A program made the translations under genes and the position numbers. From the human T2T-CHM13v2.0 reference genome, Homo sapiens: DNA of 64,000 nt. Where the stretch lies: the NCBI RefSeq assembly GCF_009914755.1, contig NC_060935.1. One strand, 5' to 3'. How positions within the stretch are numbered: the first letter of the stretch is position 1; each line of letters begins with the position of its first letter. Under the pieces are notes generated by a model, which saw nothing but the letters and a program-made list of their open reading frames with translations, searched no databases and was not told the DNA's origin. Shown here one piece after another: positions 43,136 to 44,919 of this stretch.

Positions 43136-43213
43136 CTCTTTCTCAATCAAGGGCAGCGGGTACTTGGCTTCAGGGTCCTGTAAGGTGATTGGCTCTCTCC
43201 TCCTGGAGTTCAT
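43136..43213 (-). CDS. CYB5R2: CYB5R2 first AUG-initiated coding segment (MNSRRREPITLQDPEAKYPLPLIEKE); the exon begins at 43279
   Basis: ATG at 43213; GAG|gtaatg donor; the eight coding segments sum to 831 nt, 276 aa plus stop. Confidence 0.96.
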
Positions 43214-43859
43214 GCTCTTCAGGACCAACACGAGCACAGTGACCCCAGTGACGGTGATGGTCAGGAGCAGGGACGGGTCCTGGCAGACACAATGTGAACA
43301 GAGCACCTCAGGTCTTGCCCGCCCTGGACAGGGCAGCTCTCAGGCGCAGAACACCCTCCCCACACCAAAGGCACAGGAGCTGAGCTCTGCCTGCAGGAAA
43401 TAGGCAAAGAGAACAGTAGTGACACAGAAGGCGGCTGGGAGAGCCTGTGGTGGACCAGAGGGTAGGGAGGGGTCAGCTGCAGGTCACACAGGAAGGATGT
43501 TTCAGGCCCCTGGAGCAGGCAGCACACATGGCCTGGGGTGCTCAGGTCACTAGGCCCCTCCTGGCTACAGCCAAACGTTCATACACTGGAAGTCCCTTCC
43601 TTGAGGTGAAGGGGGAGGACGTCACCCCTAACACACAATCCGGAATGAGGGGCCCAGTCCCTAAAGACAGAACTAGGGTGCGTAGCTCTAAGAGGTGCCC
43701 CGTGACTTAGGGCCTGGGGACTCCCCAACAGTCTCCTGGACAGGGCGAAGGGGGCCTGGGCACTCAACTGCCAGAGACTCGGGAGCCTCCCCGCATCTGT
43801 CCCTACCCTACAAGGCCGCCCTGCTCCTCTCCCAACTCAAGCCCGACAGGGAAAGTTGC

Positions 43860-44830
43860 CTCTCCTCCCGCCGGGTCACTGGAGTCTCAGCCTTCCGGAA
43901 TCCGAGCCGGCCCGCCCCGCTCCCCGCCCTTCGCGGTCCCGCCCACGACCTCTCCCCACGCCTCCCGCTCCGGCCCCCAACCTCCCGGTCGGACGTTCGT
44001 TCCCGGCTCTGGCCGGCCTCCGCGCCTCTGGCCTCTTTCCTTCCGGCCGTCCCGACGGAGATATTTCTTCAATACTCCATAAATACACCCCGCCGCGGAA
44101 CCCACCCGGAGTGAGACGCCCAACACGTCGTCGAACTGGGGTTGGCCGGGGGCCGCTCCCCGCCGCGGGCCCGCAGACTCGTGGCGTCGCCCCGCAGCTC
44201 CGCCTGGCCGACGGGGAACCGGCCGAGACCCGGACACGCACGCCCGGGAGGACAAAAGCGCGGGCGGACCCCGCAGGCTGGGACCCCGGCGGCTGGCCCG
44301 CTCCCCGAGAAGGGCCGTGGTCGGGGGGCTCTCACTCACGAGCCGCTGGCTCTGGGTCAGCCCTGCCCCCAGGGCAGCGCTCCATCATGAGGCTGGCGGG
44401 GCGCTGAGCCGTGGCGTCCTCGCTCCTGCGCTGCCCCTCTGCATCCTGGCCCCTTCCCTGCACACGCAGAGCTGCCACACTGAGCGCCCCTCAGCTTACT
44501 TAAGCTCGGCAAGGCTGGAGAAGGCCGTCTGGGTGACCGGGCGGAGGGGGATGCTGGGGAAGGAAGAATTCAGGCAGCTGCAAAGAGCGCGCGAATATAT
44601 TCATTCGACATACCTCATGGGCGCCTACCCTGGGCCTGGTCCGGGGCGGGTGTTTGCGGGGTGGGGCCGAAGCAGGGGCGTCGCCGAGTTGAAGACGTGT
44701 ACTCCGAGCGCTCCTGCGTTCATTCATTCGCTGGGTGGAGAGAGGAAGGACAAGAGCCCCGCGCCGATCGGAGGGGAGCAGAATAGTAGGCACAGTTAGA
44801 GGGTCTTCACGGTGCGTTTCGGAACCTTGG
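43860..44830 (-). promoter_or_regulatory. CYB5R2: CpG island, CYB5R2 promoter and alternative first exons
   Basis: Very high GC and CpG density, GGGCGG boxes; minus-strand donors after 44340 (gtgagt), 44500 (gtaagc) and 44614 (gtatgt). Confidence 0.88.
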
Positions 44831-44919
44831 CTGCCCGGCTCGCCCTTGATTACAGGCAAAGGCAAATTCTTGCCTCAGGACCTGTGTGAAACAGAGAAGC
44901 CCAGAAGCAGATCCCCACC

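What the first reader, a model, noticed from the sequence alone, without database searches (positions are those of the whole stretch)
43214..44380. Hidden CUG-initiated, myristoylatable, membrane-anchored CYB5R2 isoform in the 5' leader
Seen: on the minus strand the first exon ending at donor CTC|gtgagt (44340) contains GCTGCC-CTG-G (CTG at 44372-44370), a CUG with G at -3 and G at +4, exactly 11 codons before the junction. Spliced to exon 2 (43279) it reads without a stop as (M)GAGLTQSQRL|DPSLLLTITVTGVTVLVLVLKS into MNSRRR..., a 33-aa extension giving 309 aa. It has Gly2/Thr6, then an uncharged hydrophobic run of about 17 residues, then basic residues. Established: MGxxxS/T is the N-myristoylation consensus, and the membrane isoform of paralog CYB5R3 starts MGAQLST in a short first exon followed by a hydrophobic anchor in exon 2, with the soluble form starting at a downstream Met. 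CYB5R2 is generally described as a soluble 276-aa protein. Inference: CYB5R2 either keeps a non-AUG membrane/soluble switch or carries a fossil of one after an AUG>CUG change. Caveat: two out-of-frame AUGs lie 13 and 16 nt upstream and would compete if transcribed.
Basis: partly seen in the sequence, partly recalled or inferred. Interest (0 to 1): 0.8.

Follow-up and report, generated by a model that had tools for sequence, protein, structure and literature searches.

The report
Relic membrane anchor in CYB5R2 leader

Summary
The letters are as described. CTG 44372-44370 is followed by 11 codons to CTC|gtgagt. Exon 2 reads 22 open codons (DPSLLLTITVTGVTVLVLVLKS) into the annotated ATG at 43213.

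The hydrophobic stretch is real. It is the N-terminal anchor of placental CYB5R2, present in 50 cluster representatives.

The proposed first exon is not the ancestral one. At least 27 of those 50 begin with a 7-9-residue peptide such as MFGVSFR or MLGVSLR (gibbon), placed directly before the anchor. In human that peptide lies at 44126-44106, ending at the RefSeq donor 44106, and its first codon is GTG instead of ATG.

- Residue 2 of that peptide is Phe or Leu, so the ancestral form has no myristoylation signal.
- No RefSeq exon ends at 44340.
- A strong-context AUG lies 13 nt before the CTG.

The main transcript closes the frame with a TGA, so the 276-aa product lacks the anchor. A predicted human model (isoform X7) reaches the anchor from an AUG at 44727.

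Verdict: the "fossil" idea is right in spirit, but the exon and codon are wrong and there is no myristoylation.

The parts
43214..43279 (-). 22 in-frame codons of exon 2 upstream of the annotated ATG. They encode the ancestral hydrophobic anchor (DPSLLLTITVTGVTVLVLVLKS).
   Evidence: The 48-aa exon 2 translation is 96% identical to gibbon and green monkey proteins and 75-81% identical to other placental proteins. Kyte-Doolittle 2.25.
43211..43213 (-). Annotated CYB5R2 start codon (A at -3, A at +4). It corresponds to an internal Met of the roughly 305-aa orthologs.
   Evidence: The residue at this position is Met in 28 of 50 anchor-bearing representatives and K, R, L or N in 22.
44106..44126 (-). 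Ancestral exon 1 coding part: GTG TTG GGC GTC TCA CTC CGG, read as (V)LGVSLR, ending at the donor CGG|gtgggt. Human has GTG where orthologs have the initiator ATG.
   Evidence: QPQFDDVLGVSLR aligns with seal QPHFDDMFGVSFR, 9 of 13. Gibbon P0003 starts MLGVSLR. The exon end 44106 is a RefSeq exon boundary (hub table).
44340..44372 (-). It is not supported as coding.
   Evidence: No RefSeq exon ends here. 0 of 127 fetched proteins share any of five 5-residue words. It lies inside the RefSeq 'silencer' 44191-44400 and a GC-rich stretch with raised CpG content.
44383..44388 (-). Two tandem out-of-frame ATGs.
   Evidence: The uORF ends after 17-18 codons if the RNA is unspliced. If spliced at 44340, it overlaps the main ATG.
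43807..43888 (-). First exon of the selected transcript NM_016229.5. Its in-frame TGA at 43839-43837 closes the anchor frame 32 codons before the ATG.
   Evidence: hub table.
44614..44854 (-). RefSeq alternative first exon. The AUG at 44727-44725 (weak context, C at -3 and A at +4) is in frame with exon 2 when spliced directly to it. This gives a 60-residue extension that includes the anchor.
   Evidence: The N-terminus matches P0002, 'isoform X7 [Homo sapiens]', 258 aa.
43982..44080 (-). A further alternative leader exon. Human reads MEY*RNISVGTAG..., where green monkey isoform X1 reads MEYLRNIPVGTAG... and continues into the anchor. This route is closed by a TGA in human.
   Evidence: against P0004.

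Best explanation
The 66 nt before the annotated CYB5R2 start codon are the intact coding sequence of the N-terminal membrane anchor that placental CYB5R2 normally carries.

In most placentals a 7-codon first exon (MFGVSFR or MLGVSLR) is spliced to exon 2. This gives a protein of about 305 aa with a short N-terminal stub, about 19 hydrophobic residues, a basic cluster, and then the FAD/NADH reductase.

In this human sequence that first exon is still present at 44126-44106 and keeps its donor, but its initiator reads GTG. The selected transcript starts from a downstream exon (43807-43888) that places a TGA in the frame. Translation therefore begins at the internal Met and yields the anchorless 276-aa protein.

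They are most likely a chance arrangement.

Shown here: homology of the anchor, the position of the ancestral exon, GTG in place of ATG, and the in-frame TGA.

Inferred: that human cells make little or no anchored protein. Also inferred is the topology. The Lys/Arg cluster after the hydrophobic run would keep the catalytic domain on the cytosolic side.
For: -: the translated human exon 2 (48 aa) finds 23 proteins with E <= 0.01 among 92 candidates. Many are CYB5R2 of 304-312 aa covering 100% of the query, leader part included.
- 50 anchor-bearing cluster representatives were found by pattern among the 126 proteins held besides the query. Of these, 27 have M-[F/L]-[G/S/C]-x3-5-[R/Q] directly before the anchor. 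Two whale proteins missed by the pattern have it too.
- These carriers span Afrotheria (aardvark, sengi, tenrec), Xenarthra (sloth), bats, mole, shrew, rhino, seal, badger, alpaca, hippo, goat, cattle, squirrels, guinea pig, degu, kangaroo rat, mouse lemur and gibbon.
- the human exon 44106-44655 ends, in frame with exon 2, in ...QPQFDDVLGVSLR. Seal isoform X2 reads ...QPHFDDMFGVSFR, so the human V (GTG) aligns with the ortholog's initiator M.
- the TGA at 43839-43837 closes the frame in the selected transcript.
- residue 2 is Gly in only 3 of the 50, all of them alternative-exon models.
- the AUG at 44385 has A at -3 and G at +4 and sits 13 nt upstream of the CTG.
- CYB5R2 is absent from the held supplements of Fedorova et al. 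2022 (PMC9789052, 9 files; a control search found PTEN, CYB5R1 and CYB5R3) and of PMC11317171 (1 file).
Against: - I had no DNA from other primates. The timing of ATG>GTG rests on one gibbon model plus non-ape mammals.
- The window is a single human haplotype, so the GTG could in principle be a variant.
- The ortholog proteins are mostly automatic gene models, and several are isoforms of one species. The counts are therefore not independent.
- The full combination of start, open frame, Gly2 and Thr6 arose in only 1.6% of shuffles.
- I could not look at RNA-seq junctions, CAGE, Ribo-seq or proteomics, so the absence of the isoform is not shown.
[quoted passage not shown] That would fit some membrane association.
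- The anchor frame is intact in human. Over the short time since the gibbon split this is expected under neutrality too, so it does not discriminate.
Confidence: 0.8

Rival explanations
1. A transcript spliced 44340 to 43279 is translated from CUG 44372. This gives a 309-aa protein that is N-myristoylated on Gly2 and membrane-anchored.
For: - The frame is open and the CTG has G at -3 and G at +4.
- GTGAGT is a perfect intron-side donor.
- Gly2 and Thr6 fit the recalled myristoylation consensus.
- The combination is uncommon in shuffles (1.6%).
- The same CTG is also in frame through the annotated exon 44106-44655 (89 codons).
Against: - No RefSeq exon ends at 44340 (hub table).
- The exon-side donor bases CTC match only one of three consensus positions.
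- A strong AUG lies 13 nt upstream in another frame.
- 0 of 127 related proteins carry any of five words of the peptide.
- Upstream of the ancestral start, the seal protein read in the same frame shows no similarity beyond 6 residues.
- The ancestral N-terminus has no Gly2.
- The gene is not in the held lists of non-AUG extensions.
- A 93-codon open frame is ordinary here (21% of shuffles).
Confidence: 0.04
2. Human keeps the ancestral 305-aa anchored form at a low level by GUG initiation at 44126, on transcripts that carry exon 44106-44655. This would be a non-AUG membrane/soluble switch at the true ancestral start.
For: - The exon and its donor are annotated in RefSeq (hub table).
- The GTG sits exactly where orthologs have ATG and has G at -3.
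- The downstream 28 codons are intact and still form a good anchor.
Against: - +4 is T.
- The annotated exon carries six upstream AUGs if transcribed from 44655.
- GUG usually initiates poorly (general knowledge).
- The gene is not in the held Ribo-seq and phylogeny lists.
- Intactness is uninformative over this short time.
Confidence: 0.1
3. An anchored human isoform is made conventionally from AUG 44727. It would come from transcripts that splice exon 44614-44854 directly to exon 2, as in the RefSeq model isoform X7 and relatives.
For: -: this AUG is the first in that exon and is in frame. The extension is 60 residues and includes the anchor.
- protein P0002, 'isoform X7 [Homo sapiens]', begins exactly so.
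Against: - It is a predicted model.
- The AUG context is weak (C at -3, A at +4) and an out-of-frame AUG follows 4 nt later.
- X7 itself (258 aa) has an alternative C-terminal end that lacks the last part of the reductase.
- The 38-residue leader peptide appeared in no protein named for another species among those fetched.
Confidence: 0.25

Closest known systems
CYB5R3 membrane and soluble isoforms (alternative first exons; myristoylated Gly2 plus hydrophobic anchor)
   Same: - The enzyme family is the same.
- A short first coding exon is followed by an anchor encoded at the start of exon 2.
- A soluble form starts at a downstream Met.
- The two CYB5R3 isoforms and Gly2 myristoylation are stated in the review PMC9706631 (passages seen).
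   Different: - The placental CYB5R2 first exon gives Phe or Leu at position 2, so there is no myristoylation signal.
- In human the anchored route has lost its AUG.
Anchored CYB5R2 of other placental mammals (304-307 aa database models such as aardvark, sloth, squirrel and guinea pig)
   Same: - The 22-codon human leader is homologous to their anchor residue for residue.
- The 7-codon first exon and its donor are present in human at 44126-44106.
   Different: - Human reads GTG at the start.
- Human has Thr where nearly all the others have Ile in the middle of the anchor. Minke whale also has Thr.
- The human main transcript uses another first exon with an in-frame stop.
Conserved non-AUG N-terminal extensions of human proteins (the PTEN type, catalogued in PMC9789052)
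   Same: An in-frame open leader upstream of the annotated AUG would add a targeting element to the protein.
   Different: - Here the orthologs use AUG, not a conserved near-cognate codon.
- CYB5R2 is not in the held supplementary lists.
- There is no evidence that the leader is translated.

Membership tests
N-myristoylated proteins (NMT substrates) | Gly directly after the initiator Met | tested here: not met
In the ancestral CYB5R2 N-terminus, residue 2 is Phe or Leu in 27 of 27 representatives that carry it.
N-myristoylated proteins (NMT substrates) | Small or hydroxyl residue (Ser/Thr) at position 6. This consensus is recalled, not taken from a call. | tested here: met
This holds for the hypothetical product only.
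N-myristoylated proteins (NMT substrates) | The N-terminus is actually made and acylated | not testable with these tools
   No Ribo-seq, N-terminomics or acyl-proteomics data were on hand.
Membrane-anchored NADH-cytochrome b5 reductase (CYB5R1/2/3 type) | N-terminal hydrophobic segment of about 19 residues followed by a basic cluster, homologous to ortholog anchors | tested here: met
   Kyte-Doolittle 2.25 against 2.0-2.6 in orthologs. The exon 2 translation is 96% identical to gibbon and green monkey and 75-81% identical to other placentals.
Membrane-anchored NADH-cytochrome b5 reductase (CYB5R1/2/3 type) | An in-frame AUG upstream of the anchor in the main transcript | tested here: not met
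   There is a TGA at 43839-43837 in NM_016229.5 exon 1, and GTG at the ancestral start 44126. Only the predicted X7-type transcript supplies an AUG, at 44727.
Membrane-anchored NADH-cytochrome b5 reductase (CYB5R1/2/3 type) | FAD-binding and NAD-binding reductase domains downstream | tested here: met
   PF00970 and PF00175 are precomputed for the human and ortholog proteins in the hit tables.
Conserved non-AUG-initiated N-terminal extension | The near-cognate start codon and the frame are conserved across species | tested here: inconclusive
   At 44126 the orthologs have AUG, so this is not a conserved non-AUG codon. For CTG 44372 no orthologous DNA was available. No protein counterpart was found.
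Conserved non-AUG-initiated N-terminal extension | Ribosome footprints or initiation peaks in the leader | not testable with these tools
   The only evidence is indirect. CYB5R2 is absent from the held supplements of PMC9789052 and PMC11317171. Files may have been cut when stored.

The most novel reading that the evidence does not exclude
On the human lineage after the split from gibbons, CYB5R2 changed from a membrane-anchored reductase into a mainly soluble one. It did so by losing the initiator (ATG>GTG at 44126) and by closing a second leader exon with a TGA. The intact anchor frame is still translated at a low, regulated level from a non-AUG codon (GUG 44126 or CUG 44372) or from AUG 44727. 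This would give a minor membrane-bound pool, for example in testis.
Probability: 0.2. Interest if true: 0.6.

Novelty: new member of a known kind. Interest (0 to 1): 0.4.

Why it matters

This analysis gives a concrete answer at the sequence level. Placental CYB5R2 is ancestrally anchored, and the human gene still holds the anchor's coding sequence in its 5' leader. However, the ancestral start codon is GTG in this genome, and the main transcript stops the frame.

This matters in three ways:
- It explains why the human protein, and separately the mouse protein, is treated as soluble.
- It warns against carrying localisation findings across species.
- It defines simple tests for a residual anchored form.

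My literature searches found nothing in print on this. They cover only open-access papers and preprints.

Tried and rejected
- Two literature searches with a loose term count returned papers unrelated to CYB5R2 and were of no use.
- Passage searches in PMC3980038 (the promoter methylation paper) for CpG island, transcription start, exon 1, isoform and localisation found nothing.
- PMC12314331 gave nothing on CYB5R2 localisation. PMC12718117 does not mention CYB5R.
- The third protein search was meant to reach non-mammalian vertebrate orthologs. Its 120 listed hits were placental CYB5R2, insect proteins and unnamed records, and none was named for another vertebrate. Deep vertebrate ancestry of the first exon therefore could not be settled. 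One unnamed 300-aa protein (P0127) and five insect proteins show an N-terminal hydrophobic anchor without Gly2.
- I considered whether the 93-codon open frame from 44384 to 44106 is itself evidence of coding. It is not: 21% of shuffles are at least as long.
- I considered CUG or GUG starts inside exon 2 of the main transcript. Their contexts are poor and nothing supports them.
- I did not run structure prediction, the representative-library search or the atlas search. None could tell the hypotheses apart.

Full report
**What the sequence shows**

On the minus strand, CTG sits at 44372-44370 with G at -3 and G at +4. Eleven codons, read as LGAGLTQSQRL, run to CTC|gtgagt, so such an exon would end at 44340.

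Exon 2 starts at 43279 in phase 0. It reads DPSLLLTITVTGVTVLVLVLKS before the annotated ATG at 43213. Joined in silico, the frame is open back to a TGA at 44387-44385.

The two out-of-frame ATGs at 44388 and 44385 are there. The second has A at -3 and G at +4.

The hub's RefSeq table lists five kinds of 5' exon (43807-43888, 43982-44064, 44106-44655, 44614-44848/44854/47468). None ends at 44340.

**The hydrophobic leader is a real, conserved anchor**

I used the 48-residue translation of exon 2 (P0001) as a query for longer proteins. It returned 23 proteins with E <= 0.01 among 92 candidates. Many are CYB5R2 of 304-312 aa that cover the whole query, including the part that is 5' leader in human. 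Identity is 96% for gibbon and green monkey and 75-81% for squirrels, guinea pig, horse, sifaka, tenrec and aardvark.

Two further searches used the aardvark protein:
- Residues 1-62 gave 66 hits among 116 candidates.
- Residues 1-125 gave 1117 hits among 1430 candidates, of which the best 120 were listed.

A pattern search over the 126 proteins held besides the query found 50 cluster representatives with the anchor. The pattern misses some, such as two whales and a beaver. Several of the 50 are isoforms of one species, so the counts are not independent.

The human segment scores 2.25 on a 19-residue Kyte-Doolittle window. The orthologs score 2.0-2.6.

**Where the ancestral first exon is**

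Of the 50, 27 begin (or, in one read-through seal model, continue) with a 7-9-residue peptide directly before the anchor. Examples are:
- MFGVSFR: aardvark, bats, alpaca, mole, seal
- MFGISFR: sloth
- MLGVSFR: squirrels
- MLGAWLR: guinea pig, degu
- MLGISLR: mouse lemur
- MLGVSLR: gibbon

The carriers span all four placental superorders, so this exon is ancestral for placentals.

In human, the RefSeq alternative exon 44106-44655 ends, in frame with exon 2, in ...QPQFDDVLGVSLR. Seal isoform X2 reads ...QPHFDDMFGVSFR at the same place (9 of 13 identical). The human V is GTG at 44126-44124, and it aligns with the initiator Met of the orthologs. The donor CGG|gtgggt after 44106 is kept.

Because gibbon, mouse lemur and non-primates have Met here, parsimony places the ATG>GTG change on the human lineage after the gibbon split. 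I had no ape DNA and only one human haplotype, so both the timing and the fixation are inferences.

- None of the 127 held proteins contains any of five 5-residue words of GAGLTQSQRL.
- Upstream of the six residues before the start, the seal read-through protein shows no similarity to the human translation in the same frame.
- Residue 2 of the ancestral N-terminus is Phe or Leu in 27 of 27. Gly2 occurs in only 3 of the 50, all alternative-exon models of horse and star-nosed mole. Myristoylation is therefore not an ancestral trait of CYB5R2.
- The strong AUG at 44385 lies 13 nt before the CTG, in another frame. If the RNA is spliced as proposed, its reading frame runs past the main ATG.
- The segment lies in a GC-rich stretch with raised CpG content (GC 0.71-0.78, CpG observed/expected 0.56-0.99 for 44100-44499). 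It also lies inside a RefSeq 'silencer' element (hub table).

- 44340 is one of only three sites in 43280-44900 that match at least 5 of 7 donor consensus positions. The other two are the RefSeq donors.
- In 2000 dinucleotide shuffles, a good-context start open to a donor-like site arose in 29.5%. With Gly2 and Ser/Thr6 added it arose in only 1.6%. Those criteria were chosen after the fact.
- The same CTG also stays in frame through the annotated unspliced exon (89 codons). An open frame of 93 codons is ordinary here, though, occurring in 21% of shuffles.

**Other routes to the anchor in human**

- The selected transcript NM_016229.5 puts a TGA (43839-43837) in the frame 32 codons before the ATG. 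The in-frame CTG and GTG codons inside exon 2 have poor contexts.
- The leader exon that green monkey isoform X1 opens with MEYLRNIPVGTAG... reads MEY*RNISVGTAG... in human, so a TGA closes it.
- Exon 44614-44854 spliced straight to exon 2 supplies an in-frame AUG at 44727 with a weak context. This gives a 60-residue extension that includes the anchor. It is exactly the N-terminus of the predicted 'isoform X7 [Homo sapiens]' (P0002). An anchored human isoform is therefore already present among database models. X7 itself has a truncated C-terminal end.

**How it most likely works**

In the ancestral arrangement, a 7-codon first exon plus exon 2 gives a short stub, a hydrophobic helix and a Lys/Arg cluster. 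By the positive-inside rule (general knowledge), the reductase domain would stay on the cytosolic side, as in its paralogs.

Many species also have 275-276-aa models that start at the internal Met, for example a second squirrel isoform. The residue at that position is Met in only 28 of the 50 anchored representatives and K, R, L or N in 22. The soluble form is therefore optional across mammals, and the anchored form is the common one.

In human the anchored routes are weakened or closed, so the 276-aa anchorless protein is the default. Whether a minor anchored pool persists is open.

**Other lineages**

- The mouse X2 model scores only 0.83 on the hydropathy window. The golden hamster model keeps an MLGLWAR start but scores -0.17. 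The anchor has therefore decayed in these rodents.
- Felids, hyaena and meerkat appear only as 275-aa proteins. This is weak evidence of loss.
- A deer mouse model keeps the anchor but has a different first exon.

**Literature**

- The family review PMC9706631 (passages seen) says that whether CYB5R2 has a membrane anchor is uncertain. It describes the CYB5R3 membrane and soluble isoforms and Gly2 myristoylation.
- PMC10834511 (passage seen) cites the Human Protein Atlas for Golgi and nucleoplasm localisation.
- PMC9595208 (passage seen) found zebrafish cyb5r2 mRNA enriched in the membrane-bound fraction, which fits an anchored product there.
- Searches pairing CYB5R2 with myristoyl, transmembrane, ribosome profiling, isoform plus N-terminal, and start codon found nothing on an anchor, a start loss or a leader translation. 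A further search on the gene's full name and sperm-related terms also found nothing.
- The held supplements of two surveys of human extensions do not list the gene. Those files may have been cut when stored. bioRxiv supplements and PDF supplements were not available.

**Verdict**

The proposed CUG start, splice donor and myristoylation are most likely coincidence. The better-supported story is a relic of the placental anchored isoform whose initiator has become GTG at 44126.

Noticed in passing
window 43982-44080 (-): Human reads MEY*RNISVGTAG... where green monkey CYB5R2 isoform X1 (P0004) reads MEYLRNIPVGTAG... and continues into the anchor. This second AUG route to the anchored form is closed by a TGA in this human sequence.
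   Followed up: partly
proteins P0018, P0021, P0023, P0024 (mouse, unnamed, golden hamster, Apodemus): The anchor segment has decayed in these rodent models (hydropathy 0.83 in mouse and -0.17 in hamster, against about 2.5 elsewhere). The hamster model still begins with the ancestral-type MLGLWAR. This looks like a loss of the anchor independent of the human one.
   Followed up: partly
one search hit list: After placental CYB5R2, the named best-scoring proteins for aardvark residues 1-125 were insect reductases (mostly Lepidoptera). No hit was named for a marsupial, bird, reptile, amphibian or fish. This may be an effect of the word-based candidate choice, or of how non-placental orthologs diverge.
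   Followed up: no
proteins P0083, P0084, P0086 (Balaenoptera): The baleen whale CYB5R2 models are truncated or irregular (216, 266 and 338 aa) although they keep the MFGVWVR start. Minke whale shares with human the Thr in the middle of the anchor, where others have Ile.
   Followed up: no
window 44383-44388 and 44332-44334 (-): The strong-context AUG at 44385 opens a 17-codon upstream reading frame in the annotated exon 44106-44655. That exon carries six upstream AUGs in all, so this leader would be strongly inhibitory for any downstream start.
   Followed up: partly
window 44106-44384 (-): A 93-codon open frame runs in phase with the donor at 44106. It is ordinary for this GC content (21% of shuffles). 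The other two frames are open for 75 and 76 codons.
   Followed up: yes
window 44614-44618 (-): An ATG lies 5 nt before the strong donor GAG|gtatgt of exon 44614-44854. Spliced to exon 2 it is out of frame and stops after 7 codons.
   Followed up: yes
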